Position numbers and translations under genes: made by a program. Under the pieces are notes generated by a model. It was given only the letters and a program-made list of their open reading frames with translations. It made no database searches and had not been told where the DNA came from. A stretch of DNA of 64,000 nt from a virus. Shown in pieces: positions 1 through 17,373 of the stretch (positions are counted from its first letter, which is position 1; each line of letters starts with the position of its first letter). The stretch lies in IMG/VR virus record IMGVR_UViG_3300045988_174170; one strand, 5' to 3'.

Positions 1-1185
1 GACTACCTCATCAACGCACAAGTAGACCTCGGCGTATACCCATACCCAATCGAATGGACAACCTACGACAAAGAAAACCCCGAAGCGGAATGGGACTTCT
101 ACCCCGGACACGTCATCGCCAGCAACTTCTACAAAGCTATCCTAGAATACATCGACCGAGCACCCGAAAAGAACGACGCTTTCCTCGCCTTCCAAGGGCT
201 ACTAGTCTACCGCACAGACACAGAACTAGCATCCATCCAAGGCGAAGTAAGCCCCGACGAACAACACATCAACGGGTCACCATACATCGGGCGCTGTATC
301 ACCATCACCTCCAAAAAAGGTGGAACAGGTAAAACCACAACCTCACTAGGACTAGCAAACGCCCTAGCCAAATACAGCCAAAAAGCCGTAGAAGAAGGAC
401 GCGCCAAAACCCCACTAAAAATCATCGTCATCGACCTCGACCTACAAGACGGACAAGTAGGATACGACACAGGCAACCAAGCAAAAACCGTAGTAGGCAT
501 CTTTGACGACTTCCGCTCAGAATACCGCATACTAGGCGAAGACCCCGCCGAAGACTGGCGTATCATCAACGACAACATCAACCACAACACCCGAGTAGGA
601 GTAGACACACTACTAGCACCCGAAAACCCAACCGACCTCAACGACCTACGCCCACCATTCTACCGCACCATCATCCAGGCAATCCGCGAACACTACGATA
701 TTGTCATCATCGACACATCAGTACTACTCAACGACCCCTACATGAAAGAATGTGCATACCCCCTAACCCACAAACTGTACTACGTGACACAGCCACACTT
801 CAAGCCGCTAATTACCATGAAACGACAGTTTGTGTACGGTCTAGGCTCAGGACGGCACGGCGGAGGAATGGACCCGCGCCGCATCAGTGTATTCGTAAAC
901 GGCGTAGAAGACGAAGATACCGTCAAAGCAGGTTCAGCAGTATCACTCCCCGGAGTGCAAGACTACTGCGCCGCAGGAATCGAAGTGCTCACAGGCGTAC
1001 CATACCTACACAGGAAAGTACTAGACGCAACCAACCCGCGCCTACCCGGAGGATTCGACTACCTACTAGAAAACGACGGATACCGCGAAGGTATGGAAGT
1101 GCTACTATACGACATCATTAGGGGTACCGACTACCCGCTATTTGATGCGGAAACAGCTGAAGCTTTTGAAGCTGACTACCTATAA
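1..1185 (+). CDS. ParA/MinD-family P-loop ATPase (CpaE/TadZ-like), 5'-partial at window edge
   Basis: Frame 1 is open from nt 1 to TAA 1183-1185. Deviant Walker A 'ITSKKGGTGKTTTSLGLA' and a hydrophobic 'IVIIDT' Walker B-like strand. The track ORF 742..1185 is only its C-terminal part. Confidence 0.75.
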   Translation, partial: DYLINAQVDLGVYPYPIEWTTYDKENPEAEWDFYPGHVIASNFYKAILEYIDRAPEKNDAFLAFQGLLVYRTDTELASIQGEVSPDEQHINGSPYIGRCITITSKKGGTGKTTTSLGLANALAKYSQKAVEEGRAKTPLKIIVIDLDLQDGQVGYDTGNQAKTVVGIFDDFRSEYRILGEDPAEDWRIINDNINHNTRVGVDTLLAPENPTDLNDLRPPFYRTIIQAIREHYDIVIIDTSVLLNDPYMKECAYPLTHKLYYVTQPHFKPLITMKRQFVYGLGSGRHGGGMDPRRISVFVNGVEDEDTVKAGSAVSLPGVQDYCAAGIEVLTGVPYLHRKVLDATNPRLPGGFDYLLENDGYREGMEVLLYDIIRGTDYPLFDAETAEAFEADYL

Positions 1186-1200
1186 AATCAGCACCAAAAA

Positions 1201-1248
1201 ATTAAGGCGGGAAGCGACCTGTAAAAACAAGTCACTTCCCGCCTTAAT
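1201..1248. terminator. bidirectional hairpin terminator between convergent genes
   Basis: 14-bp perfect stem ATTAAGGCGGGAAG / CTTCCCGCCTTAAT with a 20-nt loop, sitting between ParA-like (+) and 1255..1524 (-). Confidence 0.55.
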
Positions 1249-1254
1249 GCACTT

Positions 1255-1524
1255 TCAGACTAGAGGAACCGTTACCTCATCATCCCAAGAATTGCTAGGA
1301 GCCGTATTTTCCACCACCTGCGGTGACTCAGGTATCACCCAGCCGATAAACAAGCAGATAGCTGATATTACAAGTAGCAAAATAAAAATAGTTCCGCTAC
1401 CATTCCAGAACTTAACATCACCCAACTGCCCAACAATAAATCCAAGAAACATGATTCCAGGGGCGATAATCAGCATAAGTGAAGCGCCAACCATGCAAGC
1501 CCAGCGCTTCACCTCACCTAGCAT
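1255..1524 (-). CDS. small membrane protein
   Basis: Track ORF 1255..1548. The GTG at 1548 abuts the SD, whereas the ATG at 1524 has GAGGTG 12 nt upstream. Two hydrophobic segments. Confidence 0.4.
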   Translation of the reverse strand: MLGEVKRWACMVGASLMLIIAPGIMFLGFIVGQLGDVKFWNGSGTIFILLLVISAICLFIGWVIPESPQVVENTAPSNSWDDEVTVPLV

Positions 1525-1597
1525 TTGAGAACTATTCACCTCAAACACCCACCTAACGGATAAACAATCATTTTACATGAGAATCATATCCGCAACT

Positions 1598-2104
1598 TTA
1601 CAGGCGCGTAACAACAAGAAGAAAGCCAAGCCCCAGAAATATTAAAACAATAAAACTTATAAGGATTTTAAGAACTTTCTGAACCTCGCCTGTTTTTTCG
1701 GTTTTACTATCCTTGCAGATGCCTGTGCTAACACTGTATGACCCAATGACAGTAGTGCATTTATCAGAAGGGGAAGAACTAGGAGTAGAAGGCGTGGGGC
1801 TAGGCGAAGAGGTTACTTGATTTGCAGGTGCTGACGCTGTGTGCTTAGGTAGTACATGCTGTGTAACACCATAAAGTGCGCCGCCAAGCAACCCAAGAGT
1901 GAAACAGATACCAATAATAACGGCAATAGTTTTACCCAGCTCTCGACGTTTTCACCGTGACTTCTCAGCATCCTGTGCTTTCTGGATACCTTCAACCCAA
2001 TCACACTGCAACTTATCGTAACCCAAGATACGGGCTGAGCCCGCATACGGTGATTCTTTTATCTGCATCGCCGCATTATGCTCTTTGGTATAGACCTTAG
2101 TCAT
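1598..2104 (-). pseudogene. paralog of the 2119..2661 membrane protein interrupted by an in-frame TGA (1952..1954); nonsense-inactivated or read-through/recoded
   Basis: ATG at 2104 with AAGGGG 13 nt upstream. 50 codons align to paralog residues 12-61 (SPYAGSARILGYDKLQCDWVEGIQKAQDAEKSR vs SPYMGAARVLGYDHKQRDWIKAIQDAKDAEEAR). TGA sits at the position of Val in the paralog. The same frame then continues (KRRELGKTIAVIIGI...) for 117 more codons into track ORF 1598..1891, including the TM segments. Confidence 0.45.
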
Positions 2105-2118
2105 AAGAGTTAGACCCC

Positions 2119-2661
2119 TTATTCTATTGCCCCAACGGAGGATATGCTATTTGAGCTTTTACTCGGTGGTGCGGGCAGGTTGTTCATTGCGTAAAATACA
2201 GCTCCAAGCAATGACAGAACGACGATAAGTGGGATAATTAGCCTTATGTTTTGAGCTTTTACGGCATGGAACATGCCAAAAAGAACTATCAAGAGGCTAA
2301 CTACCATAAACAGTTGCATTGCCCTGGAGGAGAAAGGGCTTGTACTGCTACTCGAACTAGTTGTACTTGCTGGTGTCGATTTAGGGAGCAAGTCACCCCA
2401 CGGCACTTGGGAAAGCCCGTAGATAGCCGCAATGATAAGACCGATAATCGCACCAATAATAACTAGAACACCTAGTACCTTGAGTGCTGATTTACCTAGC
2501 TCTTGGCGGGCTACCCGCGCCTCTTCAGCATCCTTAGCGTCCTGAATAGCTTTAATCCAGTCACGCTGTTTATGGTCATAACCCAAGACACGAGCGGCAC
2601 CCATGTACGGCGAGTTAGCTACACGCTCAATTATTCCTTGCCCAGTATTTGCGGTACTCAA
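2119..2661 (-). CDS. small membrane protein (soluble N-domain, TM helices, Ser/Thr-rich tail); likely PspA-associated anchor
   Basis: 180-aa ORF. TTG start 5 nt after the PspA-like stop, with AAAGAGAAAGGG upstream. Hydrophobic stretches LKVLGVLVIIGAIIGLIIAAIYGL and MQLFMVVSLLIVLFGMF. A paralog lies immediately downstream. Confidence 0.55.
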   Translation of the reverse strand: MSTANTGQGIIERVANSPYMGAARVLGYDHKQRDWIKAIQDAKDAEEARVARQELGKSALKVLGVLVIIGAIIGLIIAAIYGLSQVPWGDLLPKSTPASTTSSSSSTSPFSSRAMQLFMVVSLLIVLFGMFHAVKAQNIRLIIPLIVVLSLLGAVFYAMNNLPAPPSKSSNSISSVGAIE

Positions 2662-2666
2662 AAGAA

Positions 2667-3587
2667 CTACAGCCCTTTCTCTTTACGTAGAGCTTCCAGG
2701 CGTTCCTGTGCCGTCAAGCGGGTAAACTCATAGTCGTTACTACCCTCTTGAACTTCCCGCATACCCTGCAAACGAGCCTCGGCTTCCTCGGCAAGTTTAT
2801 CGAACGCGGAGCCGGTAGTCACGTCGCTAAGCTTGTCCTTCAAGCTATTCACCAGTTCTTGCTGTTTCTGTGAAGTATGCAAATCACCTAGGCGACGCAC
2901 CCCACGCTCAGCTTCCTTCAAGATACTAAGATTGCTCTTAAAAGCCGCCTCCGTATCCTTCAGGAACTTACGGCTAACCCTCAGAGAGTTTTCAGCGTCA
3001 ATAAGCTCGATAGCCAGCTCCTCATTGCGGGCGGCAACCTCTTCAGCATCACCCTTCTTACGCCAACTACTCTGACCCTTCAGGCCAGCTTCAATCTCTG
3101 ACTCTAGACGCTTAACCTTAGCCTCCAACATGGCAATATCATCTAGATAGTCAATGATATTAGGTGCCGAATCACCCAAAGCTTCACGTGTCTCAGCAAT
3201 CAGTTTCAGACCCTTAGCAATCTCTTCTTCGTTTTCCATACCTACACTGCTCATGCGTTCAAAAGCCCTTTCAAAAGTAATAATTTTCTCTAGCCTACTA
3301 TCAGACGGTAAACCCCGCCCAACGTAGTACACCTTAGCCGCCGCCAACGTCTCCCGCCTAATCTTCACCAAGTCAGAGGTAAACATCAGGTCAGCACCCT
3401 CACGTTTCTGTGCACCCCTAGCCTTAATAAGAGCACTCCTCAAACTTTCAGGGCACCCCGTGTCGTAATAAGTAAGCAAAGCATCAGCAAGCGTAAGCTT
3501 CTGCTCCAAAACAAGCATCGGTTCAAGCTCGGTAGGCGGCTCAACCTTAGCTTCACGTCGGAAAAACTTCAAAATAGAACCTTTCAT
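2667..3587 (-). CDS. PspA/IM30 (Vipp1/LiaH)-like coiled-coil protein (tentative)
   Basis: Track ORF 2667..3704. The start is more likely M40 (ATG 3587), because a TGACCG-17-TACAAT promoter lies downstream of the 3704 start. N-terminal amphipathic MKGSILKFFRRE, a long heptad-rich coiled coil, and a C-terminal 'SAFDKLAEEAEARLQGM' reminiscent of the PspA/Vipp1 'AFERMEEKV' helix. Similarity is judged by eye only. Confidence 0.45.
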   Translation of the reverse strand: MKGSILKFFRREAKVEPPTELEPMLVLEQKLTLADALLTYYDTGCPESLRSALIKARGAQKREGADLMFTSDLVKIRRETLAAAKVYYVGRGLPSDSRLEKIITFERAFERMSSVGMENEEEIAKGLKLIAETREALGDSAPNIIDYLDDIAMLEAKVKRLESEIEAGLKGQSSWRKKGDAEEVAARNEELAIELIDAENSLRVSRKFLKDTEAAFKSNLSILKEAERGVRRLGDLHTSQKQQELVNSLKDKLSDVTTGSAFDKLAEEAEARLQGMREVQEGSNDYEFTRLTAQERLEALRKEKGL

Positions 3588-3608
3588 AACAAAATTAATA
3601 ACAAACTC

Positions 3609-3637
3609 ATTGTAGCATGTGTGACATAAGGCGGTCA
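3609..3637 (-). promoter_or_regulatory. sigma70-like promoter TGACCG-17-TGcTACAAT for the PspA-like operon
   Basis: Read on the minus strand: -35 TGACCG (3637..3632), 17-bp spacer, extended -10 TGCTACAAT (3617..3609). Confidence 0.45.
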
Positions 3638-3731
3638 CCCCCGAAACACAAAGGCAAAACACGGTCAGCAAGCTATAGGTTACACAGCCTAAAAAAGACC
3701 CCAAACAACCAGTAAAGGAAACACAGACGCA

Positions 3732-5288
3732 ATGACCACTACCGCTGGGCTTTCACTCAACCAAATGCGCAAAGCAACAAAGCGACCCAACAACGTTGCT
3801 GAAACACGCAAACGACTCAACCGAATCAACGAAGAAGTAGCCGCCCACGCGGAAGTAACCCCCAACGAACAGCCAGCCACCAAAGAAAAAGAAGGCACCA
3901 CCCTCACAGCTGAAGAACTCAATGAAATCATTGAATCAGCAATCAGCGCCGCCGCCAACGCAAACCGAAGCCAAGAAAAACCAGAAAAGACTGAAACACC
4001 CAAAGTAGACACGTCACAAGCACGTACCATCAAGACAAGTCTAGGTGACGGCAACCCGCTACGATACTCAGTGCCCGAAGCCCGCGACGAACCGCCCGGC
4101 TTCCCAATCTGCGCAATCCTAACGGAAGCAATCAACAGGGGCGCAACAGACGTATACATCACCCCAGATACACCTATCCGCTTCAAAATCAAAGGCGGAA
4201 ACAACATCTACGACGGGTTCAAAATCCCAGACCGAACCGAAATTAACCGTATGATGAAGGTAATCATCCCAACAGGTGAACAAGACATCTTCACCTCACA
4301 GAAAGAGCTTGATACCTCATATACGCTACCCCTATACGAACATGCCGGTCGAAGGACACGTCTCAACGTCAGCGCGGCAAGCCCCGGATTCGGTAACGCG
4401 GTACTGTCATTCCGTATCCTAGCCGGAAACCTGTACCATCCAAAGTATTACGGGCTACCTGACGTAGTACTTAAAGCAATGCACCAATCCGGCGGACTTA
4501 TCGTATTCTCGGGACCAACCGGTTCAGGTAAAACAACCAGTATCGCGTCGCTACTACTCTACGCATCAAGGGAAGTACATCGACCCGACGCTAACGGCAA
4601 CCCAACAGGGCCGACAATCATCACCATTGAACGCCCAATTGAGTACCTGTTCGACAATAACAATGAGAAGGCAAACGGCTCACTCTTCATCCAGCGTGAA
4701 GTAGGACGTGACACATACTCATTCGATAACGCTATCTCATCAGCTATGCGACAGCAACCTAACATCATCCTTATTGGTGAGGTTAGGAAGTCAGTTGAAA
4801 TGCAAGCCGCTCTAACTGCCGCAACCACCGGTCACCTGACCTTGACCACAGTACACGCCGAAGATACAGCGGGTATTATCCAGCGCCTTATGAGTGCCGC
4901 AGACACCGGTGCGAACACCCGTGAAGACGTTCTACGTTCAATTGCCGCCTCTGGTCGAGTCTTTGTCACGCAGGCTCTAGTAGACCGAATCGACGGCGAA
5001 AAGATAGCTGTACACGAAGTTCTTGTCATCAAGCAGTCTGACCAGTCCCTCATTCAGGCAATTCAAGAAGGCGACTTCCGACATATCCGTCAGTCTCTAC
5101 AAGCAACAGGTGAAGACATGAGTAGTCGCCTAGTGGAACTTTGCCGCGAAGGTGGGCCTTGCTACGTCGAAGCGGCGTTGAAGCACAGCCCCGACCCCAA
5201 TAGGTTCTGGCAACTTATCCAGCTTGAAAAGTCGAACGGAATTGAGCACAACTATGACCCGAACAAGAAGGAAGAAGACCTGTGGTAG
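3732..5288 (+). CDS. PilT/GspE/VirB11-family secretion (traffic) ATPase
   Basis: Walker A 'FSGPTGSGKTTS', Asp box 'IITIERPIEY', Walker B 'NIILIGEVR', His box 'TGHLTLTTVHA'. The N-domain 'AILTEAINRGATDVYITPDTPIRFKIKG' is PilT-N-like. AAAGGA RBS. Confidence 0.85.
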   Translation: MTTTAGLSLNQMRKATKRPNNVAETRKRLNRINEEVAAHAEVTPNEQPATKEKEGTTLTAEELNEIIESAISAAANANRSQEKPEKTETPKVDTSQARTIKTSLGDGNPLRYSVPEARDEPPGFPICAILTEAINRGATDVYITPDTPIRFKIKGGNNIYDGFKIPDRTEINRMMKVIIPTGEQDIFTSQKELDTSYTLPLYEHAGRRTRLNVSAASPGFGNAVLSFRILAGNLYHPKYYGLPDVVLKAMHQSGGLIVFSGPTGSGKTTSIASLLLYASREVHRPDANGNPTGPTIITIERPIEYLFDNNNEKANGSLFIQREVGRDTYSFDNAISSAMRQQPNIILIGEVRKSVEMQAALTAATTGHLTLTTVHAEDTAGIIQRLMSAADTGANTREDVLRSIAASGRVFVTQALVDRIDGEKIAVHEVLVIKQSDQSLIQAIQEGDFRHIRQSLQATGEDMSSRLVELCREGGPCYVEAALKHSPDPNRFWQLIQLEKSNGIEHNYDPNKKEEDLW

Positions 5289-5688
5289 AGTAGCGTAAAC
5301 TGCATAACAAAAACCCCTCAAGAGAATCATCTTGAGGGGTTTTTGTTGTTATAACCTTATGGCTTTACAGTCCGCGAGAGTAATAGCCACATAACATGCC
5401 ACAGATAGCCCAAGAAGCCACCATATAGCCCCTAAAAGCAAGCTTATTACTAGTAAGTGGGCTATGAAAAACCTTGCCTTTAGAGAGCTATATAAGGATT
5501 CAACACACATACTGGAATATATTAGGAAAGGTGGACACCATACAGAAGTAAAGACAAAATATACACAACTAGAACAACGGAACCTACAGGCAGGAAGTCG
5601 AGCACCAGCCACGTAGCCCAGCATACGTAAAAAGGGGAACCTTCAGCACAATCAAGCTAAAGGTTCCCCCTTTTTTTGTCACGACACA

Positions 5689-7332
5689 CTAGAAACTAAA
5701 AACAGATTCCGTATTCTCAAACACGCCACCTTCAGGACGTTCCAACCTGTAAGCAACAATACGGTCAGAAACCCCCTCCTCAGTAGCCCACTTATTCACG
5801 CGGCGAACCATAGTGTCCGATGTGCACAACCAAACCACCTTACTGAACACTGAACGGTCATCACGGTACTGCTCCAAAATCTCAACCAGCTTACCCCTAG
5901 ACTTAGAGGAACCACGCTCAACCTCAACCGCAATACTACGCGCCTCACCATTCTCACCACGCGGCAAAATAGCCACAATATCCGGCACATGGAAAGTCGC
6001 TGTAGAAGCCGCCGACAAAACAGCCCACATCCACTCATTACCACCAAAACACTCAGGGCCAACACCACTACCACCACCAGCACGCCACTCACGCAAAATC
6101 CTAGCACGCTCAGCAATCAGATAATCACGCATCTCAAGCGCATTATTACCCCTCAAAAGACCCTGCAAAGAACCATTAATCTGACGGTCAGACACAACGT
6201 TAAACCCACGAAGAGCAGAACCACCTGAAGAACGACCACCCCAAACACCAGTACCAAGATTCAATACGTCAGTAGACCCGCACCACAACAAGGCACCAAC
6301 ATATGTAACAAGAACCCTATGCGGAAACTCCATATTGCCCAAAGATGAACGCTTAAACGCGCCGCCACCAACACCAAACTCATCAAGCCCAACACGAGTA
6401 CCCACCCAAACACGGTGACCACCAGCACCCGCAACATCAACAGCCTCAATACAGCCCCTAGACTGCAAACCCTTCAAATACTTCAAAGCCGTAACACGAG
6501 TAGACACACCAAGCAAAAGCATAGTAGCCCTAACATCAACCCAACCAAAAATACCGATAAAGCTCATAATCTCAACCTCACGGCGAACACCCATAAGGCG
6601 AGGACGAACACCACCATCAGCACGCTCCTTAGAACGCAAACGCTTCACCCTAGCCTCAACAACATCAGGCGACTCGCCAACCAGCGGCGGCGACACAACA
6701 TCAACACCACCAACACGACTCAACCAATAAGAAGACTGCTCAACAGCCAAAACATTAGAAACTTCAACAGACGACATAACGCCGCCCCTCCCATCATAAT
6801 CAAACCTAAAAGAAGACAAATCAGAAACACCAACACCAACAGGTAACCCCAAAGAACCAGAACCGGAACCAGGCGGCGCAACAAGACCACCCAAAACCAA
6901 ATCCTCAACCCCCGCAGACTCACCCAAAGCACGGGCACCAACACCACCAACAGGAACCCTAAACCCATCAGCAACAGCGTTCAAATCAACCGAACCACCA
7001 AAAGACCAACGAGCACGCGGCGTAACACCAAATGAAAAACCACCATGAGTAAACACAGAACCAGACCAGCCCGACACAGAGGCATCCCACACATAACCCG
7101 AACATTCAGATTCAAACGACCTAAACGGCTTAGGAATATCCGAAAAATCCCTCACACCAACACCACGCTCAAGAACCGACGTGCCACCATGAGGCCAAAC
7201 AAACCCCTCCGTCACATGAGACAAACCAACACCAGAAGGGAACGCCCCCGGCAACAAGCCAGCACCAACACCAGCAATAGCACCAATAACAGGCTTAGAA
7301 ACAGCAGAACCAGCCAAAACCAGAACCTCCAA
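5689..7332 (-). CDS. replication-relaxation (Replic_Relax)-like winged-helix protein with ~260-aa Gly-rich N-terminal extension
   Basis: The C-terminal half 'REVEIMSFIGIFGWVDVRATMLLLGVSTRVTALKYLKGLQSRGCIEAV ... HVPDIVAILPRGENGEARSIAVEVERGSSKSRGKLVEILEQYRD' matches the architecture of plasmid replication-relaxation family proteins, recalled from memory. TTG start, so the start is uncertain. Confidence 0.5.
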   Translation of the reverse strand: MEVLVLAGSAVSKPVIGAIAGVGAGLLPGAFPSGVGLSHVTEGFVWPHGGTSVLERGVGVRDFSDIPKPFRSFESECSGYVWDASVSGWSGSVFTHGGFSFGVTPRARWSFGGSVDLNAVADGFRVPVGGVGARALGESAGVEDLVLGGLVAPPGSGSGSLGLPVGVGVSDLSSFRFDYDGRGGVMSSVEVSNVLAVEQSSYWLSRVGGVDVVSPPLVGESPDVVEARVKRLRSKERADGGVRPRLMGVRREVEIMSFIGIFGWVDVRATMLLLGVSTRVTALKYLKGLQSRGCIEAVDVAGAGGHRVWVGTRVGLDEFGVGGGAFKRSSLGNMEFPHRVLVTYVGALLWCGSTDVLNLGTGVWGGRSSGGSALRGFNVVSDRQINGSLQGLLRGNNALEMRDYLIAERARILREWRAGGGSGVGPECFGGNEWMWAVLSAASTATFHVPDIVAILPRGENGEARSIAVEVERGSSKSRGKLVEILEQYRDDRSVFSKVVWLCTSDTMVRRVNKWATEEGVSDRIVAYRLERPEGGVFENTESVFSF

Positions 7333-7417
7333 AAAGAATCAACAAAAACAAGGTATAAAACAGGCGCAACCCCGCAAAATCAGAGCCGCGCCCACCACCA
7401 ACATAGCGGCAAATAAA

Positions 7418-7437
7418 AAAGTGTGCTACAATTATAA
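7418..7437. promoter_or_regulatory. back-to-back overlapping divergent extended -10 promoters (TGCTACAAT on + / TGTTATAAT on -)
   Basis: gtgTGCTACAATtataacagta. The + strand element feeds 7478 and its reverse complement TGTTATAAT feeds 5689..7332. Confidence 0.4.
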
Positions 7438-7477
7438 CAGTACTTGGTAAACCCCTACAGATAAGGACACCCAACAA

Positions 7478-7669
7478 GTGAACACCCCAACCAACGGCAA
7501 GAACTACCTCAACGGCAAGCTCATTGAAAACCCCATCGGATACCTCTTCGGAGCGGATTATGCAGAGACGCTAGATGAAGACACTAAAGCCTACATGGAA
7601 TACCTTGTTAAGGAGTTTGATAGTTGGGACGAAGAAGCAAAGAATAGCAACACCGAAAGCGAACAGTAA
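7478..7669 (+). CDS. hypothetical protein (GTG start)
   Basis: 63-aa ORF with AAGGA 12 nt upstream. Confidence 0.45.
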   Translation: MNTPTNGKNYLNGKLIENPIGYLFGADYAETLDEDTKAYMEYLVKEFDSWDEEAKNSNTESEQ

Positions 7670-7671
7670 CA

Positions 7672-7986
7672 ATGTTTAGCCAACAGGAATATTATCCCAT
7701 CCTGGCACTAACACTAGAAACCCGTGTACGTAGACCAATGGGCGGAGGCCCACAGTTGGCACGTATGCTAGTCGTACACTTCGTAGACGCTGAGAATAAC
7801 CCCTGCTACAAAACCTATGGATACTCAGGGATGAGCCCAGAATACGACCTGCCCACTGTAAAAATTGTCTTCAAAAACACCGACACCCCCTACCTTGTTA
7901 AGGCGGGGAATAATGGGCGTGACGAAATCCAGCTAAGCAAAGACCATTGGAAAAATATCCATACCGGTAACGTAAGCCTAATCTAA
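7672..7986 (+). CDS. hypothetical protein
   Basis: 104-aa ORF tightly packed after the previous gene. Confidence 0.5.
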   Translation: MFSQQEYYPILALTLETRVRRPMGGGPQLARMLVVHFVDAENNPCYKTYGYSGMSPEYDLPTVKIVFKNTDTPYLVKAGNNGRDEIQLSKDHWKNIHTGNVSLI

Positions 7987-8017
7987 CCCACCCCTAAGAC
8001 AGAAAGATATTCAAAAC

Positions 8018-8284
8018 ATGAATAACTACACCGTCATCAAAATCCAGTTTGAAACCATCGTAACCGAAAGAACCACATCATACAATACACAGAGCGCAAC
8101 CCGCGTACATTACCTGCAAACCGACGGTACAGTAGCGTCAGTTCGGTACGACCCCGGCGAGCTGAAGATGGTTCTTGACCAGCACGAAGGTAAACTACCC
8201 TACCTCACCGACGATAATGTACTACACGTACACCCGGAACACCTGAAAGACATTCAGACTTCCGTCATCAGGTACTTTAAGTAA
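8018..8284 (+). CDS. hypothetical protein
   Basis: 88-aa ORF, followed by a 17-bp perfect GC hairpin at 8311..8361. Confidence 0.5.
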   Translation: MNNYTVIKIQFETIVTERTTSYNTQSATRVHYLQTDGTVASVRYDPGELKMVLDQHEGKLPYLTDDNVLHVHPEHLKDIQTSVIRYFK

Positions 8285-8394
8285 ACCTGCAAACCAAACC
8301 CGCTAAGAAACGCCCCGGCGGGGCGGCATAAACCACCCCAAACCATGCCGCCCCGCCGGGGTGCACAAGCACTACAGAATAGGAAAACCAACCC

Positions 8395-9186
8395 ATGCTG
8401 AATAACCTTGAGCCCGGCGACATCATCATCACCGATGACCACTTCTATAAAGTCACCCGCACAATGCGCACCCTACGAGGTGTCCTCACCTCAATGCACA
8501 TCCTCGGCAAGGAAGGCGCGGAACAGTATATTAATGCAGAAGGTGGGTACCCCATTGAGCTTATCGGCGGCTTTGACCACATCAAGAAGTCGGAAAATGT
8601 AGATATTGAAGAGTTGTTCGATATGGAACGCGGACGGGATGAACTCATTGAAGGATACACCAAAATTCAAACCCTACTGCCGGGAGCTTACAAGCCCGCC
8701 CAGCCGTCTAAAGCTAACAACCCCAACAGCACCTCATGGATGCTCAACCACCCCGACAAGCTGACCCTAAGCCTACACCCAGCTAAGTGTGAAGAAGAGC
8801 TGGAAAAGATAAAGAGCCTACTAGAAGAAGCGGAACGCAAGCTTCATGATGCGGCATGTGATATTCGAGAGGGGCGCAAAAAGTATGCCGCCAAATACAC
8901 GGAGGTAGCAATCGAGAACGCCACCTATCTAGAAACCGAAGAACACCGCAAGAAGTTCTGCAAAGCAATCAAAGAGGCATACCACGAAAGCTTCCCCTGG
9001 GAAAACCAGCCTTTCAACATCGCCTACCCCCGAATCTACAGCACATCATTCCCTGAAAAATTGCACGCGAAACTTCAGGAAAACGTGTACAACACACACC
9101 AGGAAATTATTAAATCACTACTAGTAATCGAATACCTCGACACCCTAGCGGAAACCCTATACGGTGAACCCAATAAAAAGGGTTAA
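8395..9186 (+). CDS. hypothetical protein with N-terminal 'PGDIIIT' motif
   Basis: 263 aa. The motif LEPGDIIITDD is shared with 16024, 32636 and 42749. RBS AGGAAAA. Confidence 0.6.
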   Translation: MLNNLEPGDIIITDDHFYKVTRTMRTLRGVLTSMHILGKEGAEQYINAEGGYPIELIGGFDHIKKSENVDIEELFDMERGRDELIEGYTKIQTLLPGAYKPAQPSKANNPNSTSWMLNHPDKLTLSLHPAKCEEELEKIKSLLEEAERKLHDAACDIREGRKKYAAKYTEVAIENATYLETEEHRKKFCKAIKEAYHESFPWENQPFNIAYPRIYSTSFPEKLHAKLQENVYNTHQEIIKSLLVIEYLDTLAETLYGEPNKKG

Positions 9187-9234
9187 ACCCTAAAACAAAT
9201 AACCCAACAGGTGCACCCCACCAAGGAGTAAAAC

Positions 9235-9786
9235 ATGACAAAACCCAAGAGCCTATCTTACGGAAACATCAACAACCGCTACATCTTTCACAACTCGTTT
9301 GATACCCCCAGTAGGTACTACTGGACAGCCGATAAAATCGCTAAGCGCGAGAATGAACTCCGCAAAGCAGGCTGGGTAGCACTCCCAGGAACCTTCACCC
9401 TAGACGACCCACAGCGAGAAATCGTTGAGGTTAAACCGGGTACTGAAACCACCAAACACCTAGTGCACCTCATCAGGTTCCTTGCGGGCAAGCACAAGAG
9501 GGAAACTGGCACCCCCTACAAAATGTACGCGCACCTCAATGTATCGGTAAACACCAAAGATGAAGACGGCATTGGTGTAGTCGAAATCAATACCACCTTC
9601 ACTAGTGACCCCGAAGGTAAACACAAGATTGGTGTATCAATGACCACCTGCCTAGATGAACCTTGGGAACTCAGTACTGAAGAATGGCTCAAGATGGACG
9701 GTAAAACCTACCCCATCGGAACCCCTATCTGGAGCGACTGGCACAAAGACATCGAAATCCTAATCAACCCCAAACAAGGTAAATAA
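9235..9786 (+). CDS. hypothetical protein, paralog family C
   Basis: 183 aa, about 55% identical by eye to 10875..11441 (GWVALPG.FTLD.PQR.IV..KPG.ET.KHL.HL..F.AGKH...TGTPY.MYAHLNV). Confidence 0.7.
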   Translation: MTKPKSLSYGNINNRYIFHNSFDTPSRYYWTADKIAKRENELRKAGWVALPGTFTLDDPQREIVEVKPGTETTKHLVHLIRFLAGKHKRETGTPYKMYAHLNVSVNTKDEDGIGVVEINTTFTSDPEGKHKIGVSMTTCLDEPWELSTEEWLKMDGKTYPIGTPIWSDWHKDIEILINPKQGK

Positions 9787-9890
9787 CCCCATAACATAAC
9801 GGCAAAGGGCGCCCCTGAACAATCAGTAAAAGGGGTGCCCTAAACGCCACACTAAACCACCAACACCAAAAACACGGAGAGTAAAACACC

Positions 9891-10790
9891 ATGCGAATCC
9901 CCCTAGCACCCCACACCCTAACCGTAGGCGAAGCCTTCATCCTACAAAACAACAACGAAAAATCCCTATACAAAGTAACCCACACCGAAGGCAACACCAT
10001 CACCGCCGAACGCAAACACACCACCAACAGTGAAACAGCACCCCAAACCATCACCGGAACCCTACTCAACGGAACCCTAACCACCACCACACCAGTACAC
10101 AACACCCGAACACCCAAAATCATCGACCTCAACACCACCAAAACCAACACCATAAAAGCCACCACCAACAAACCCGAATACACCATCATCAGCAAGAACA
10201 CCAACGAAGACATCAACATCTGGCAAACCATCGAAACAATCACACCAGACGTAACCCTAGTACAATCACAAACCACCCCCACCCAAAAACGCATACACCT
10301 AACACCCCAACTACAAAAAGAAATCAACACAAACACCACCAACCTAACCCCCACACACACATTCTACCTAAACAACAACAACACAGAATGTGTACCCCAC
10401 GACGCGGCAAAAGCCCTAAAAACCATCATCAACCACCCCCACTGGAACGCCCTAAAACAAAAAGCAGTCAAGAATAATGACTGGGAAACCACCCTAACCA
10501 CCGACTACCTAACCGACACATACTGGGAACAAATCAGCACCGACTACAGTGACGGCTACGCATGGGGAGTCTCCTACGACCTCATCATCGACTACACCAT
10601 CGACTACGCAGAAGAGCTAAAACACCTCACCAACAGCACCGACCCCCAAACCCCAAACAGCAAAAACCTAACACCCAAACAACAAAAACAACTCACCACA
10701 ATGCTGAACAACGTCATCAAAAAACTCGAACAATCCGAATGGTACGAACCCGACCCCGAAGACTACACCATCATCCCCTACATCGAATAG
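9891..10790 (+). CDS. Thr/Asn/Pro-rich low-complexity protein with structured acidic C-terminal domain
   Basis: 299 aa, GGAGAG RBS, flanked by the family-C paralogs. Its C-terminus (DWETTLTTDYLTDTYWEQISTDYSDGYAWGVSYDLIIDY) is non-repetitive. Confidence 0.5.
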   Translation: MRIPLAPHTLTVGEAFILQNNNEKSLYKVTHTEGNTITAERKHTTNSETAPQTITGTLLNGTLTTTTPVHNTRTPKIIDLNTTKTNTIKATTNKPEYTIISKNTNEDINIWQTIETITPDVTLVQSQTTPTQKRIHLTPQLQKEINTNTTNLTPTHTFYLNNNNTECVPHDAAKALKTIINHPHWNALKQKAVKNNDWETTLTTDYLTDTYWEQISTDYSDGYAWGVSYDLIIDYTIDYAEELKHLTNSTDPQTPNSKNLTPKQQKQLTTMLNNVIKKLEQSEWYEPDPEDYTIIPYIE

Positions 10791-10874
10791 TTTGCATACC
10801 CCTAGCCGGTGTGGTAACCTATACCTACAGGTGCCACACCGGTACCCCAAAACACGCAACCAAGGAAATCAAAA

Positions 10875-11441
10875 ATGAAGTCTTACGAAGATGACATCCT
10901 AAACGGGTATATGTTCTGGGATGACGATAAATGGAATTACAAGGCGAAGATGGTTACTGAAGCTGAAGGCTACCCCTGTGTGGAGCACGCTATCATGTGG
11001 GACAACAGGTTCCGCAAATCAGGCTGGGTAGCACTCCCAGGAGCCTTCACCCTAGACGAACCCCAACGAAAAATCGTCAAAGCTAAACCGGGTCAAGAAA
11101 CAGCTAAGCATCTGATGCACCTCATGGCGTTCCACGCAGGCAAGCACCAGAAAGCAACCGGCACCCCCTACAATATGTACGCGCACCTCAACGTATGGGT
11201 GAACTCCGGTGACGAAGACGACCCCCACGAAATCGGAATTGACGCAACATTTACCAACGACCCCGAAGGTAAAAACCCGGCAGGTGCTTCAATGGCAACC
11301 TACCTAGCAGGTGACTGGGGTGGGCTAACCATGAAAGAATGGCTCAAGCTAGACGGTAAAACCTACCCCGTAGGTTGCCCCATCTGGACAGACTGGGGCA
11401 ACCGAATCGAAATCCTCATCCACCCAAAACGGGGTAAGTAA
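10875..11441 (+). CDS. hypothetical protein, paralog family C
   Basis: 188 aa, paralog of 9235..9786. Confidence 0.7.
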   Translation: MKSYEDDILNGYMFWDDDKWNYKAKMVTEAEGYPCVEHAIMWDNRFRKSGWVALPGAFTLDEPQRKIVKAKPGQETAKHLMHLMAFHAGKHQKATGTPYNMYAHLNVWVNSGDEDDPHEIGIDATFTNDPEGKNPAGASMATYLAGDWGGLTMKEWLKLDGKTYPVGCPIWTDWGNRIEILIHPKRGK

Positions 11442-11455
11442 CCCCAACACAATAA

Positions 11456-11492
11456 GCCCCGGCAACCCAAACAAAACACAGGTTACCGGGGC
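11456..11492. terminator. GC hairpin terminator
   Basis: CCCCGGCAACC ... GGTTACCGGGG followed by CTTC. Confidence 0.45.
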
Positions 11493-11552
11493 TTCATGCT
11501 ACCTTTTCAATACAGAAATCGCGTATCCCGCACTAAGGAAGGAACACCCACC

Positions 11553-11777
11553 ATGAGCTTCTACCACACCAACTGTAGCTACGACCCTACCGATGCCATA
11601 GGCAACGACGACGAATGGAACCCAGGAGAACCAGACTGGCAAACCAACGAAGAAGAATGGGACTGGATAGCTTGGAGAAACAACATCGCCATGTCCGAGC
11701 CACCAGAACACGAATACGAAGACTACCCCAACAGTCCATATGAAAGCGTCTCTGTTGCACTTGAAAACAGGGAATAA
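11553..11777 (+). CDS. small acidic Trp-rich protein
   Basis: Track ORF 11496..11777. The ATG at 11553 has AAGGAAGG upstream. Confidence 0.5.
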   Translation: MSFYHTNCSYDPTDAIGNDDEWNPGEPDWQTNEEEWDWIAWRNNIAMSEPPEHEYEDYPNSPYESVSVALENRE

Positions 11778-11816
11778 GTAAACACCACCAACACCACGTC
11801 GCATATACAGCAAAAC

Positions 11817-11853
11817 CCCCGGCAACCCGCACACGCAGGAAACCGGGGGTTTA
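11817..11853. terminator. bidirectional terminator between convergent genes
   Basis: CCCCCGG-N20-CCGGGGG + TTT. Closely resembles the 11456 hairpin. Confidence 0.5.
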
Positions 11854-11904
11854 CTAACACCCAAAACACCAAACAAAACACCACACCAAACCAGACACTA
11901 AACC

Positions 11905-13422
11905 CTACAATAGGTCAGACACAACACCGGCAACATCCACCAAATCAACACCTAAGCCCGCAACCGGCGAACCCACCGGAACATCAACAACACCACCAAC
12001 AAACCCCTCGCCAACACCAGCAGAACCACCAAACAAACCAGCAGAACCACCACCACCATTCACAACACCAACCGGCGAACCATAACCCTCACTACCACCA
12101 ATAAAACCCAAACCCAAACCAGGCACAATATCAGAACCAGAACTAGAACCCGAACCAGAACCAGCAGAAATAGTACCTACAACATCACCCCAACAGGCAC
12201 GACCAACACCACCAACAACACTATCAACCCAATTACGGACAAGCCACCAACCGGCGAAACGACCCAAACCAGCAACCCTAGCCTCAACCGGCGAAACACC
12301 ACCCAAACCACCAACAGAACCAAACTCAACATCAGGCACATCAACCAATGCAACACCATCAACAGACCCAGACACACCAACCCCAACAGAACCCGCCACA
12401 TCAACAAAACCAGCAGGAGCCAAACGCGAACCAAACACCAAACCCCTATGTGTCACACCATCAACAACAACCTCAGACCCAACACCAACACCACCAGAAA
12501 CACCAACAACACCAGGAACAAAACCACCAGCACCCAAACCCGAAACACCCAAAACACCACGCCAACCAGAACCCCCACCACCAACAGACAAAACACCCAA
12601 AGAAGCCGAAGACAAACCCCAAGACACAGACAAACCACCAAAACCAGACACACCAGACACCACAGGAACACCCACCAAAGACACACCACCAGAACTACCA
12701 GAAACACCACTAGAAATACCCGAACCCACACCAACACTCAAAGGAAAACAACCCACCAAAGCATCACCAACACCACGCCAACCAGAACCCCCACCACCAA
12801 AAGGCAAAGCACCAAACCCCACAGACGAAACACTCAACCCCGAAAAATCACCAACAAAACCCTCCCACAAAGGAACACCAACACCACCAACAACAGACAA
12901 ACCACCACCAGAAACACACCCCAAAACACCACCACACTCCTCCACAAAAGACAAAGACACACCCTCAGACACAGACACCACACCACCACCAGAACACACA
13001 CCACCCACAGACACCAAAAACCCATCCCAAACACTAGAAACAGACCCGGACACACCAAAAGAATCAACAAAACCCACAGAAGCCTCATAGGGGCACTCAA
13101 ATACACTAGAGGTATAATCACCCACCCCAACACCAAAAGAACCCATAGAAGGCTCCACAGGGGGTGTAAAAGAATGACCATACCCCCACGCCTCCTCAAC
13201 ATTAGAAGCAATAAACCCCCTACCACTAACACCCCAAGCAGAAGACTGCCAACCACACTGCACAAAACCAGGCATAGTCAAACCACTAGCAGACGGGGGA
13301 TTATGACCAACAGGGGTATAAAGTACACCACCATCAGGTAGCGTATCACCTATCGGCGGGGCTGTTAGAGTGCCAGGAACCCACGTCTCAACAACACCAA
13401 TAACAGTGCTATCTACAGCCAT
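11905..13422 (-). CDS. Gly/Val/Ser-rich 505-aa protein with internal repeat GGGGSGWRGV
   Basis: Track ORF 11905..13443 (TTG). The ATG at 13422 is preceded by GGGAAAGGG. The non-repetitive N-terminal 100 aa and the terminator at its 3' end support this strand over the mirror-image + strand Thr/Asn ORF. Confidence 0.5.
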   Translation of the reverse strand: MAVDSTVIGVVETWVPGTLTAPPIGDTLPDGGVLYTPVGHNPPSASGLTMPGFVQCGWQSSAWGVSGRGFIASNVEEAWGYGHSFTPPVEPSMGSFGVGVGDYTSSVFECPYEASVGFVDSFGVSGSVSSVWDGFLVSVGGVCSGGGVVSVSEGVSLSFVEECGGVLGCVSGGGLSVVGGVGVPLWEGFVGDFSGLSVSSVGFGALPFGGGGSGWRGVGDALVGCFPLSVGVGSGISSGVSGSSGGVSLVGVPVVSGVSGFGGLSVSWGLSSASLGVLSVGGGGSGWRGVLGVSGLGAGGFVPGVVGVSGGVGVGSEVVVDGVTHRGLVFGSRLAPAGFVDVAGSVGVGVSGSVDGVALVDVPDVEFGSVGGLGGVSPVEARVAGLGRFAGWWLVRNWVDSVVGGVGRACWGDVVGTISAGSGSGSSSGSDIVPGLGLGFIGGSEGYGSPVGVVNGGGGSAGLFGGSAGVGEGFVGGVVDVPVGSPVAGLGVDLVDVAGVVSDLL

Positions 13423-13475
13423 ACTTAAAGCCCTTTCCCGCAATCACAAAAGTGTGACATAAACATAATTTTAGT

Positions 13476-14360: not shown

Positions 14361-14376
14361 GTTTTTTGGTATAATG

Positions 14377-14386
14377 GTTTTGGGTG
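14377..14386 (+). promoter_or_regulatory. extended -10 promoter TGGTATAATG
   Basis: Consensus TGnTATAAT, rightward. Confidence 0.4.
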
Positions 14387-14557
14387 GTTTTTTTGGTATC
14401 TAGCCCTGTGTGGAAAGTAGCCTTTTGCCTTGTCAGGGCGTTATGCACTGTGGTGCATTTTCTTCATTTTTGGGGTCTATAATCAACCTGTAGGGGTTGT
14501 TTTTGGGTTGGTGGGGCACCTTACTCCTGTTTAGGGTATGTGGGTGGGGTTATTTTA

Positions 14558-17340: not shown

Positions 17341-17373
17341 ATTTATTTCTTGTGGAAGGAAGGTGTACCTATC

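What the first reader, a model, noticed from the sequence alone, without database searches (positions are those of the whole stretch)
1..5288. ParA/TadZ-like and PilT/VirB11-family ATPases on a phage-like element
- A MinD/ParA-type ATPase and a full-length PilT/GspE/VirB11-family hexameric ATPase flank the PspA-like operon.
- The traffic ATPase has all four signature boxes intact.
- Traffic ATPases are motors for pili, secretion or DNA transfer.
- On a viral or plasmid element this may indicate a DNA transfer or translocation function, or a partition system such as ParA, in a hybrid phage-plasmid lifestyle.
- Other pilus or T4SS components are absent from the window, which suggests a repurposed motor.
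Basis: partly seen in the sequence, partly recalled or inferred. Interest (0 to 1): 0.55.

Follow-up and report, generated by a model that had tools for sequence, protein, structure and literature searches.

The report
Extra motor ATPases beside a secretion system
Two motor-type ATPases are real, and they are conserved core genes of an undescribed family of giant (230-410 kb) DNA elements from the human mouth, next to a very divergent DNA-transfer (type IV secretion) gene set, so they are probably parts of that machine and not stray repurposed motors.

Summary
Both ATPases are present. A MinD/ParA-type protein ends at 1185; the window holds 394 of its 563 aa. A full-length PilT-family ATPase lies at 3732-5288. 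HMM scores place the second protein with PilT/PilU, not VirB11, GspE or TadA, although it falls below the curated cut-off. The 'PspA-like operon' between them is a 2.06-kb insertion specific to this lineage. It has no detectable PspA homology. In relatives only one small 2-TM gene separates the two ATPases.

The window belongs to a prevalent family of 230-412 kb elements from oral metagenomes. IMG/VR lists them as viral. They are absent from the reference phage, plasmid and GTDB collections searched. About 140 kb was inspected, and annotation coverage was uneven; no capsid or terminase gene was found.

Three clades share a conserved order: TcpE-like, VirB4 C-terminal ATPase, ParA-like, small 2-TM gene, PilT-like, MobC-like. 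In a sister clade the 55 kb upstream also holds the matching VirB4 N-terminal half as a separate gene, a coupling-protein-like ATPase, paralogous giant membrane proteins, cell-wall hydrolases and SSB.

Best reading (confidence 0.45): the two proteins are accessory ATPases of a divergent Gram-positive-type type IV secretion or conjugation system. This would be a new variant of a known kind. Function is inferred, not shown.

The parts
1..1185 (+). C-terminal 394 aa of a 563-aa MinD/ParA-superfamily ATPase. It has an N-terminal ~220-aa alpha/beta domain and a deviant-Walker-A ATPase domain. Its 5' end lies outside the window.
1201..1248 (.). 20-bp-stem hairpin between the convergent ParA-like gene and the small minus-strand gene. 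It is probably a terminator, with the T-run on the minus strand.
   Evidence: Terminator scan. The hairpin is conserved in L005.
1255..1548 (-). Small 2-TM membrane protein with a C-terminal ...TVPL(V) motif. It is the only gene between the ParA-like and PilT-like genes in relatives.
   Evidence: 73% identical in L005. Analogous 138-156-aa 2-TM ORFs with TVPL motifs occupy the same position in the other two clades.
1608..3665 (-). Lineage-specific 2.06-kb insertion carrying four minus-strand genes: 1598-1891, 1952-2104, 2119-2661 and 2667-3587.
   Evidence: In L005 this stretch is replaced by ~53 bp. It is absent from L003, L004 and L008 and present in L001 and L002.
2667..3587 (-). 306-aa all-helical protein: a helical bundle, a long hairpin and two further helices. 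It is an orphan family and PspA/IM30 membership is not demonstrated.
   Evidence: A promoter-like site at 3638-3609 fits the start codon at 3587.
3732..5288 (+). 518-aa PilT-family hexameric traffic ATPase. A ~125-aa N-terminal extension carries a conserved N-terminal peptide followed by a variable acidic/proline-rich linker, ahead of a complete PilT core.
   Evidence: T2SSE 1.2e-32. NCBIfam bit scores: pilT_fam 212, TraJ 115, ComGA 112, DotB 102, GspE 88, PilB 81, VirB11 46, TadA-type 34. PDB PilT 1.2e-38. Clade alignment.
5689..7332 (-). 547-aa conserved protein (58-61% identical across clades) with a weak MobC/replication-relaxation-like C-terminal region. Its codons are extremely G/T-rich at the third position.
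   Evidence: NCBIfam MobC_subf 6.8e-5, below the cut-off. Conservation. No pairwise similarity to a bona fide replication-relaxation protein. No PDB hit.

Best explanation
The two proteins are conserved core components of a very divergent Gram-positive-type type IV secretion or conjugation apparatus. The apparatus is carried by an uncharacterised family of 230-412 kb extrachromosomal elements from the human mouth.

Proposed roles (inferred):
- The PilT-type hexamer is a third 'traffic' ATPase. It would dock at the cytoplasmic face of the channel, as VirB11, DotB and TraJ do in Gram-negative systems, perhaps through its conserved N-terminal peptide on a flexible linker. It would power assembly or substrate delivery.
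- The ParA/MinD-type protein is co-operonic with the TcpE/VirB3-like protein and the VirB4 ATPase half. It would act as an ATP-dependent positioning or recruitment adaptor, in the manner of TadZ for TadA or VirC1 for the relaxosome. It may also serve as the element's segregation ATPase.

Shown: the family assignments, intact catalytic motifs, conserved synteny and operon structure, the split VirB4 and the T4SS-type neighbours.

Inferred: the physical association of these proteins, the substrate (the element's own DNA), and that transfer happens at all.
For: - Synteny. The order YdjM ... TcpE-like, VirB4-C, ParA-like, 2-TM gene (minus strand), PilT-like, MobC-like (minus strand) is kept in three clades that are only 43-68% identical at the protein level.
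- Operon structure. The gaps TcpE-like to VirB4-C to ParA-like are 18 and 28 nt in L002, and a 4-nt overlap and 22 nt in clade 2.
- Split VirB4.
  - The 408-aa protein aligns to residues 482-819 of an 851-aa VirB4-like protein of a Niallia plasmid conjugation cluster (E=5e-27) and to NCBIfam TcpF (7e-21).
  - A separate 502-aa protein about 40 kb upstream aligns to residues 2-416 of the same Niallia protein (E=7e-12).
- Other T4SS-type neighbours, seen on a clade-2 contig:
  - an 863-aa protein with N-terminal TM helices and P-loop, whose only meaningful PDB hits are the coupling proteins DotL (0.0028) and TrwB (0.47);
  - a lysozyme-like plus CHAP-like hydrolase that matches hydrolases on Gram-positive conjugative plasmids;
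  - an M23 peptidase inside a polytopic membrane protein, and SSB;
  - three paralogous 1158-1340-aa polytopic membrane proteins.
- All three ATPases are orphan clades found only in this element family. This argues for co-evolution as one module.
- Catalytic motifs are conserved in both proteins.
Against: - No relaxase was recognised in the regions scanned.
- The coupling-protein call is weak, and it has no tblastn hit in PLSDB.
- The TcpE-like call rests on Pfam E=0.0038 plus topology and position.
- VirB6-likeness of the giant membrane proteins is based on topology only.
- From my own knowledge of the MPF classification: known Gram-positive T4SS classes (MPF-FA and MPF-FATA) have no VirB11/PilT-type ATPase.
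- The module is interleaved with replication and repair genes: DnaB, DnaG-like, RecG-like, SbcC-like and SSB. A role in replication or segregation is therefore possible.
- The upstream T4SS-type genes were read on clade-2 contigs. For the window's own clade only the nearest ~25 kb of synteny was confirmed.
- Only about 140 of ~300 kb was inspected.
- IMG/VR files the relatives as viruses.
Confidence: 0.45

Rival explanations
1. The ParA-like protein is simply the partition (segregation) ATPase of a low-copy giant replicon. The PilT-like gene is functionally unrelated cargo that happens to be adjacent.
For: - A deviant Walker A ATPase of the ParA/MinD fold.
- PHROG 'ParA-like partition protein' at 4.3e-11.
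- A 300-kb element needs active segregation, and no other ParA, ParM or TubZ was seen in the regions scanned.
- The gene lies ~13 kb from a putative origin, marked by a composition flip and iteron-like GCTAGACAG repeats at 14.0-14.2 kb.
Against: - No ParB-like or HTH gene and no obvious centromere repeats lie next to it. The gene downstream is an antisense 2-TM gene.
- It is co-operonic with the TcpE-like and VirB4-C genes.
- Its 260-aa N-terminal alpha/beta domain is unlike type Ia or Ib ParA.
- The nearest sequence relatives outside the clade are CpaE/TadZ and MinD, not plasmid ParA, and all are weak.
- Adjacency to the PilT-like gene is kept in three diverged clades.
Confidence: 0.2
2. The PilT-like ATPase acts on the host's own type IV pili, for example by forcing retraction or blocking pilus function. 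This could exclude pilus-dependent phages or competing DNA uptake, or alter adhesion. It would not act on any element-encoded machine.
For: - It is closest to the PilT/PilU retraction ATPases: 212 bits against 115 or less for all other subfamilies, with a full PilT core.
- From my own knowledge: retraction ATPases need no dedicated platform gene of their own.
- No platform protein, pilin or prepilin peptidase was detected in the regions scanned with Pfam.
Against: - It scores below the PilT family cut-off (212 against 319) and lacks the AIRNLIRE motif.
- It has a unique conserved N-terminal extension.
- It keeps invariant synteny with the element's VirB4-C and ParA-like genes.
- The host is unknown, so the presence of host type IV pili cannot be checked.
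Confidence: 0.12
3. The element is a huge phage. The ATPases and the T4SS-like genes serve a viral function such as genome delivery, cell-to-cell spread or envelope remodelling, not plasmid conjugation.
For: - Relatives of 306-361 kb are listed as viral genomes in IMG/VR.
- An array of 16 tRNA genes follows the window.
- 17 copies of one element-specific promoter cassette drive arrays of small unknown genes.
- The element has its own DnaB, primase and SSB.
- PilT-like proteins fall in two PHROG families of unknown function.
- Oral catalogues list thousands of 'huge phages' that cannot be placed taxonomically (PMC12297358).
Against: - No PHROG head, tail, portal or terminase family matched any of the 73 window ORFs or the 10 upstream ORFs scanned. 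The only structural-category hits were the M23 peptidase domain.
- tRNAs and replication genes also occur on giant plasmids: Inocle (PMC12340149) and Hodor (PMC12934698), both initially confusable with phages.
- VirB4, a coupling-like protein and cell-wall hydrolases form a conjugation signature.
Confidence: 0.1
4. The pair is a TadZ-TadA-type module that assembles a Tad/Flp-like pilus.
For: - The nearest non-family sequence hits of the ParA-like protein are CpaE/TadZ at E~1e-5.
- It sits next to a T2SSE-family ATPase.
Against: - The ATPase is PilT-type, not TadA/CpaF-type (TadA-family model 34 bits against a cut-off of 373).
- No TadB/TadC (T2SSF), Flp pilin or prepilin peptidase was found in the regions scanned with Pfam.
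Confidence: 0.04

Closest known systems
PilT/PilU type IVa pilus retraction ATPases (e.g. Aquifex aeolicus PilT, PDB 2EWV/2GSZ)
   Same: Full two-domain PilT core, aligned over 380 residues at E=1e-38. Walker A, Walker B glutamate and His box are conserved. This is the best-scoring subfamily model.
   Different: It scores 212 bits against a curated cut-off of 319. The Asp box has lost its second acidic residue, and there is no AIRNLIRE motif. It has a 125-aa N-terminal extension. No pilus genes are nearby. It is only ~30% identical to its nearest cellular relatives.
DotB / TraJ (PilT-like ATPases of type IVB secretion and IncI conjugation) and VirB11
   Same: A soluble PilT-like hexameric ATPase encoded within a T4SS gene neighbourhood as an extra motor beside VirB4 and the coupling protein. 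TraJ and DotB are the second and fourth best models (115 and 102 bits).
   Different: Those systems are Gram-negative. The scores are far below their cut-offs (368 and 463). VirB11 proper scores only 46 bits. The partner proteins here are of the Gram-positive TcpE/TcpF type.
Gram-positive conjugation modules (pCW3 Tcp, ICEBs1 Con, Tn916; here a Niallia plasmid cluster, NZ_CP137637)
   Same: VirB4/TcpF homology (E=5e-27 and 7e-12). A small TcpE-like membrane protein lies directly upstream of the ATPase. There are also a bifunctional cell-wall hydrolase, large polytopic membrane proteins and a replication-relaxation-type gene nearby.
   Different: VirB4 is split into two genes ~40 kb apart. The genes are spread over ~55 kb and interleaved with replication and repair genes. 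No relaxase was recognised. There are additional ParA-like and PilT-like ATPases. All proteins are orphan clades.
TadZ/CpaE (with TadA) and VirC1 (with the T-DNA relaxosome): ParA/MinD-type adaptors of secretion machines
   Same: A MinD/ParA-fold ATPase with an extra N-terminal alpha/beta domain, encoded beside a secretion ATPase. CpaE proteins are the nearest hits outside the clade.
   Different: Sequence similarity is limited to the P-loop region (E~1e-5). The fold scores do not separate TadZ from ParA, MinD or BcsQ. The partner ATPase is PilT-type, not TadA. No Tad platform or pilin genes were found.
Giant plasmid-like elements of human microbiomes: Inocle (oral Streptococcus, PMC12340149) and Hodor (gut Bacillota, PMC12934698)
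   Same: A 250-400 kb size and mostly unknown genes. VirB4 and a coupling protein are present. They are easily misfiled as phage and are prevalent in metagenomes but absent from reference collections.
   Different: GC is 49% here, against 24-32% for Inocle. Hodors are gut elements with Rep_3, ParAB/ParM and an intact VirB4. There is no DNA or protein similarity to catalogued plasmids. Here there are a split VirB4, extra PilT-like and ParA-like ATPases, and an extreme strand-composition flip.

Membership tests
PilT/PilU family type IVa pilus ATPase (TIGR01420) | Score at or above the curated family cut-off | tested here: not met
   212 bits against a cut-off of 319.1. It is still the best of 18 matching models.
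PilT/PilU family type IVa pilus ATPase (TIGR01420) | Complete N-terminal (PAS-like) plus C-terminal ATPase core with Walker A, Asp box, Walker B and His box | tested here: met
   Aligned to 2GSZ residues 4-358. Walker A, GE and HLxxxxxH are conserved in 7 clade members. The Asp box reads E-[RQK]-P-[IV]-E, so one acidic residue is lost.
PilT/PilU family type IVa pilus ATPase (TIGR01420) | C-terminal AIRNLIRE motif of retraction ATPases | tested here: not met
   The aligned position reads SDQSLIQAIQEG. It is not restored in relatives.
PilT/PilU family type IVa pilus ATPase (TIGR01420) | Association with type IV pilus genes (platform PilC/T2SSF, pilins, PilB) | tested here: not met
   No such Pfam families were found among 73 window ORFs or the Pfam-scanned upstream ORFs to about -36 kb. 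Genes further away and in the host were not examined.
VirB11 / TrbB (P-type T4SS ATPase) | Match to the VirB11 or TrbB equivalog models | tested here: not met
   VirB11 scores 45.9 bits (cut-off 250) and TrbB 34 bits (cut-off 305). No VirB11 structure appears among PDB hits at E<1e-5.
DotB / TraJ (T4BSS and IncI ATPase) | Match to the equivalog models | tested here: not met
   TraJ scores 115 bits (cut-off 368) and DotB 102 bits (cut-off 463). PDB DotB matches at 2.3e-26. Similar in kind, but not a member.
TadA/CpaF | Match to the TadA-family model | tested here: not met
   TIGR03819 scores 34 bits (cut-off 373), over a fragment only.
TadZ/CpaE | N-terminal receiver-like domain plus MinD/ParA ATPase domain, next to TadA, TadB and TadC | tested here: inconclusive
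Type I plasmid partition ParA | Deviant Walker A ATPase | tested here: met
   KKGGTGKT is invariant. NCBIfam ParA_partition matches at 5e-7, far below its cut-off and over the P-loop region only.
Type I plasmid partition ParA | Cognate ParB gene immediately downstream and a centromere | tested here: not met
   The downstream neighbour is a convergent 2-TM gene in all clades. No ParB-type domain is present in the flanking ORFs. Centromere repeats were not searched for systematically.
VirB4/TcpF conjugative ATPase (the neighbour upstream of the ParA-like gene) | C-terminal P-loop ATPase domain homologous to VirB4 | tested here: met
   AAA_10 7.4e-38. TcpF 7e-21 and TraC 8e-16. BLASTP to a plasmid VirB4-like protein, residues 482-819, E=5e-27.
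VirB4/TcpF conjugative ATPase (the neighbour upstream of the ParA-like gene) | Single ~800-aa polypeptide with an N-terminal domain | tested here: not met
   The protein is 408 aa in all clades. The N-domain homologue is a separate 502-aa gene ~40 kb upstream on clade-2 contigs.
PspA/IM30 (the cassette between the ATPases) | Sequence or profile match to PspA, Vipp1 or IM30 | tested here: not met
   No Pfam hit. No PDB hit with phmmer or with a profile. Only 6 homologues in 1.84 billion representatives.
PspA/IM30 (the cassette between the ATPases) | ESCRT-III-like helical hairpin fold | tested here: inconclusive
   The AF2 model (pLDDT 71) has a long hairpin plus two helices. The best Vipp1 match has probability 0.92 and TM 0.52 but E=0.73. 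BAR domains and designed bundles score alike.
MobC / replication-relaxation family (5689-7332) | Match to the family model | tested here: inconclusive
   NF041423 at 6.8e-5, 22 bits against a cut-off of 200. No Pfam hit. BLASTP to an annotated replication-relaxation protein gives E=0.08.

The most novel reading that the evidence does not exclude
These elements are a new lineage of giant conjugative plasmid-like replicons of oral Gram-positive-type bacteria, currently misfiled as 'huge phages'. They move by a new class of mating-pair-formation system that uses four or five ATPase polypeptides: a coupling protein, a VirB4 split into two genes, a PilT-type hexamer and a TadZ/ParA-type adaptor. 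This would be the first Gram-positive-type T4SS with a VirB11/DotB-like third motor.
Probability: 0.3. Interest if true: 0.75.

Novelty: new variant of a known kind. Interest (0 to 1): 0.6.

Why it matters
If the reading is right:
- A very common resident of the human mouth is an unstudied 300-kb mobile element with its own unusual DNA-transfer machine. The PilT-like protein of one clade is listed in 331 blocks of the assembly collection.
- It would show that PilT/DotB-type motors and TadZ-type adaptors can be recruited into Gram-positive-type type IV secretion systems.
- It would show that VirB4 can function as two polypeptides. Both points bear on how these machines evolve and what the third ATPase is for.
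- It would flag a likely systematic misclassification of giant plasmid-like elements as 'huge phages' in viral catalogues.

Even if the reading is wrong, the pair is a clean marker for tracking this element family in metagenomes.

Tried and rejected
- Identity with Inocle elements is rejected. Inocles have 24-32% GC and a Streptococcus host; this window has ~49% GC.
- Hodor gut megaplasmids are a comparator only. They have Rep_3, ParAB and an intact VirB4.
- Similarity searches found nothing useful. Megablast of 1-5400 against phages gave no hit. tblastn of the PilT-like protein against phages and plasmids gave only hits of 38% identity or less. Two GTDB genome scans found no relatives.
- The 'PspA-like' label is not supported.
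- My guess that the conserved 247-aa upstream protein is RusA-like failed. BLASTP against a recalled E. coli RusA sequence gave E=29, and there was no Pfam or NCBIfam hit. I dropped it.
- I tried to sample the rest of the genome by scanning IMG/VR for the element's promoter motif. It retrieved only the one clade-1 contig plus random matches.
I therefore walked upstream with five IMG/VR scans.
- Several comparisons gave nothing:
  - the MobC-like protein against a real replication-relaxation protein;
  - the TcpE-like protein and the giant membrane proteins against the Niallia conjugation proteins;
  - the coupling-like protein and the 848-aa protein against PLSDB.
- The Foldseek afdb50 library was not available.
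- Rfam found only the tRNA.

Full report
**What is in the flagged region**

- Frame 1 of the plus strand is open from the first base of the window to 1185. It encodes the C-terminal 394 aa of a MinD/ParA-type ATPase (Pfam AAA_31 1.3e-10, CbiA 8.5e-6; PHROG 'ParA-like partition protein' 4.3e-11).
- An identical human oral metagenome contig supplies the whole 563-aa gene. Window position 1 equals L002 position 6270.
- A 518-aa T2SSE-family ATPase lies at 3732-5288 (1.2e-32).
- Between the two are five minus-strand ORFs: 1255-1548, 1598-1891, 1952-2104, 2119-2661 and 2667-3587.
- A hairpin at 1201-1248 separates the convergent ParA-like gene from this minus-strand set.
- Downstream, on the minus strand, a 547-aa gene occupies 5689-7332.

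**The traffic ATPase**

- It aligns to Aquifex PilT over the whole PilT core: residues 126-506 against 4-358, E=1.2e-38.
- NCBIfam bit scores rank the subfamilies clearly:

| Model | Bits |
|---|---|
| PilT/PilU | 212 |
| TraJ | 115 |
| ComGA | 112 |
| DotB | 102 |
| GspE | 88 |
| PilB | 81 |
| FlaI | 49 |
| VirB11 | 46 |
| TadA-type | 34 |

- It is therefore PilT-like, not VirB11-like or archaeal-type. It stays below the PilT cut-off of 319 bits.
- In seven clade members Walker A, the Walker B glutamate and the His box are invariant. The Asp box is E-[R/Q/K]-P-[I/V]-E, and the AIRNLIRE motif is missing.
- A 125-aa N-terminal extension carries a conserved N-terminal peptide followed by a variable acidic/proline-rich linker.
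- The protein forms a clade of only seven 90%-identity clusters. Identity then drops to ~30% for cellular PilT/PilU proteins.

**The ParA-like protein**

- The deviant Walker A (SKKGGTGKTT), A' (DLDLQDGQ) and Walker B (IIIDTS) are invariant in six relatives.
- Outside this six-cluster clade, the nearest sequences are CpaE/TadZ proteins at E~1e-5 over the P-loop region.
- A PDB profile search gives MinD at 1.5e-5.
- An AF2 model (mean pLDDT 62) is confident for residues 1-222, an alpha/beta domain, and weak in parts of the ATPase domain.
- The superfamily is certain. The subfamily is unresolved.

**The 'PspA-like operon'**

- Alignment with a relative whose PilT-like protein is 87% identical (L005) shows that window 1608-3665 is a 2.06-kb insertion replacing ~53 bp.
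- The four genes of this insertion are absent from L005 and from the two other clades. Only the small 2-TM gene (1255-1548) is conserved there. It has a C-terminal TVPL motif in all clades.
- The 306-aa helical protein has no Pfam, PDB or profile similarity to PspA/Vipp1.
- It has only six homologues among 1.84 billion representatives.
- Its AF2 model gives only non-significant Vipp1/ESCRT-III-like matches.
- The two ATPases are therefore ancestrally near-adjacent, and the cassette between them is an accessory insertion of unproven nature.

**The element**

- The PilT-like protein and its relatives occur on contigs of 230-412 kb from human oral metagenomes. One clade's protein is listed in 331 blocks of the assembly collection.
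- IMG/VR holds relatives of 306,861, 319,426 and 360,643 bp as viral genomes.
- There is no match in the INPHARED phage collection, in PLSDB or in GTDB species representatives.
- GC is ~49%, so these are not Inocles, which have 24-32% GC.
- Genes carry GAAAGG(A) Shine-Dalgarno sequences. From my own knowledge, this pairs with a CCUUUC 16S rRNA tail typical of Gram-positive-type hosts.
- A 16-tRNA array follows the window.
- Of 73 window ORFs, only six Pfam and five PHROG families matched, none of them structural.

**The neighbourhood**

- Three clades, only 43-68% identical at the protein level, share this order: RecG-like helicase, 232-aa protein, YdjM, five small proteins, TcpE-like 2-3-TM protein, AAA_10 ATPase (408 aa), ParA-like, 2-TM gene (minus strand), PilT-like, MobC-like (minus strand).
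- The gaps from TcpE-like to the AAA_10 ATPase to ParA-like are 18 and 28 nt, or a 4-nt overlap and 22 nt. This indicates one operon.
- The 408-aa ATPase matches TcpF (7e-21) and TraC (8e-16). By BLASTP it matches residues 482-819 of an 851-aa VirB4-like protein in a Niallia plasmid conjugation cluster (E=5e-27).
- I walked upstream on a clade-2 IMG/VR contig. The genes found there include:
  - a separate 502-aa protein that matches residues 2-416 of the same VirB4-like protein (E=7e-12), so VirB4 is split into two genes ~40 kb apart;
  - an 863-aa protein with N-terminal TM helices, GSPGSGKT and IFFDEFQ motifs, whose best PDB hits are the coupling proteins DotL (0.0028) and TrwB (0.47);
  - a 495-aa lysozyme-like plus CHAP-like hydrolase similar to hydrolases on Gram-positive conjugative plasmids;
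  - three paralogous polytopic membrane proteins of 1158-1340 aa, one of which carries an M23 peptidase;
  - SSB, DnaB, a DnaG-like primase and an SbcC-like ATPase.
- No relaxase, capsid, portal or terminase was recognised in about 140 kb.

**Interpretation**

- The conserved operon link to VirB4-C, the restriction of all three ATPases to this element family and the T4SS-type neighbours make one reading the most economical. The PilT-like and ParA-like proteins are accessory ATPases of a divergent Gram-positive-type T4SS.
- In that reading the PilT-like hexamer is a VirB11/DotB/TraJ-like third motor, and the ParA-like protein is a TadZ/VirC1-like positioning adaptor. I give this 0.45.
- These roles are inferred from analogy and synteny. 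Nothing here shows interaction or transfer.
- The rivals are a plain partition ParA with unrelated PilT cargo (0.20), PilT acting on host pili (0.12), a huge-phage function (0.10) and a Tad-like pilus (0.04).
The system found is far from an ordinary plasmid backbone.

**Novelty**

The proteins belong to known superfamilies. The combination appears undescribed: a PilT-type and a TadZ/ParA-type ATPase inside a Gram-positive-type T4SS neighbourhood with a split VirB4, on a prevalent giant oral element. Literature searches found only the unrelated Inocle and Hodor elements and generic catalogues of oral 'huge phages'. I rate it a new variant of a known kind, with interest 0.6.

Noticed in passing
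window 5500-18500, flip at ~14150-14300; also L004, L005 and L008: Extreme strand-composition asymmetry. The plus strand is A+C-rich, rising to A47 C43 G8 T2 % at 12501-13000, and flips abruptly to G+T-rich. Genes on both strands follow the local strand bias: third-position A+C ranges from 0.06 to 0.94. The flip is conserved in all three clades, and its sign fits a bidirectional replication origin. The magnitude is far beyond ordinary replication skew and is unexplained.
   Followed up: partly
window 13450-14580: Non-coding divergent control region at the composition flip. It has an ACACA-rich tract, four GCTAGACAG iteron-like repeats (14043, 14070, 14117, 14171), a purine tract, then a G/T tract with TGGTATAAT extended -10 boxes. 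It is a candidate oriV. Three copies of the same 9-mer occur at the equivalent place in L005.
   Followed up: partly
window 22467-62474 (17 sites, all on the plus strand): An element-specific promoter cassette, repeated 17 times where 0.02 copies are expected. Each copy has a CRP-type palindrome TGTGA-N6-TCACA, a TTGCA -35 box, GTGTGYCATAAT as an extended -10 box, a conserved 5'-UTR hairpin and a CTATCTACC-GAAAGG leader. None occurs in 1-22 kb, so the ATPase module belongs to a different transcription programme.
   Followed up: partly
window 63794-63867 and onward (L006 12833-16061): The window ends at the first gene of an array of 16 tRNA genes. One of them has a predicted 4-base anticodon.
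   Followed up: no
window 11905-13443 (-): A protein with a globular N-terminal part and a ~350-aa Gly/Val/Ser low-complexity tail encoded almost only by G and T. The equivalent gene is hypervariable in length (505-695 aa) among otherwise near-identical relatives.
   Followed up: no
clade-2 contig IMGVR_UViG_3300045988_174689: L046 2083-3591 and the homologue of L002 4508-5734: VirB4 is split into an N-domain gene (502 aa) and a C-terminal ATPase gene (408 aa) about 40 kb apart. Each aligns to the corresponding half of one plasmid VirB4-like protein.
   Followed up: yes
L046 4609-8472, L037 8285-12307, L031 2330-5806: Three paralogous giant polytopic membrane proteins (1287, 1340 and 1158 aa) with large extracytoplasmic domains and coiled-coil or proline-rich tails. 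One carries an M23 peptidase domain. They may be VirB6-like channel proteins, but this rests on topology only.
   Followed up: partly
window 1952-2104 (-) and 2119-2661 (-): Two genes of the inserted cassette share an N-terminal motif, SPY(M/A)G(A/S)AR(V/I)LGYD..DW...IQ.A.DAE. The 50-aa ORF may be a truncated paralogue, or the head of a frameshifted gene that continues in 1598-1891.
   Followed up: no
window 54746-56314 (+); 46289-47341 and 59154-60491 (+): One of the 73 window ORFs scanned matches SPFH/Band_7-flotillin; on a related contig the homologous 512-aa gene at this position carries the same families, so it is probably 54746-56314. Two paralogues match PHROG families 5070 and 7964, of unknown function. 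One unidentified window ORF gave a weak Pfam DotD hit (2e-4) that could not be traced.
   Followed up: no
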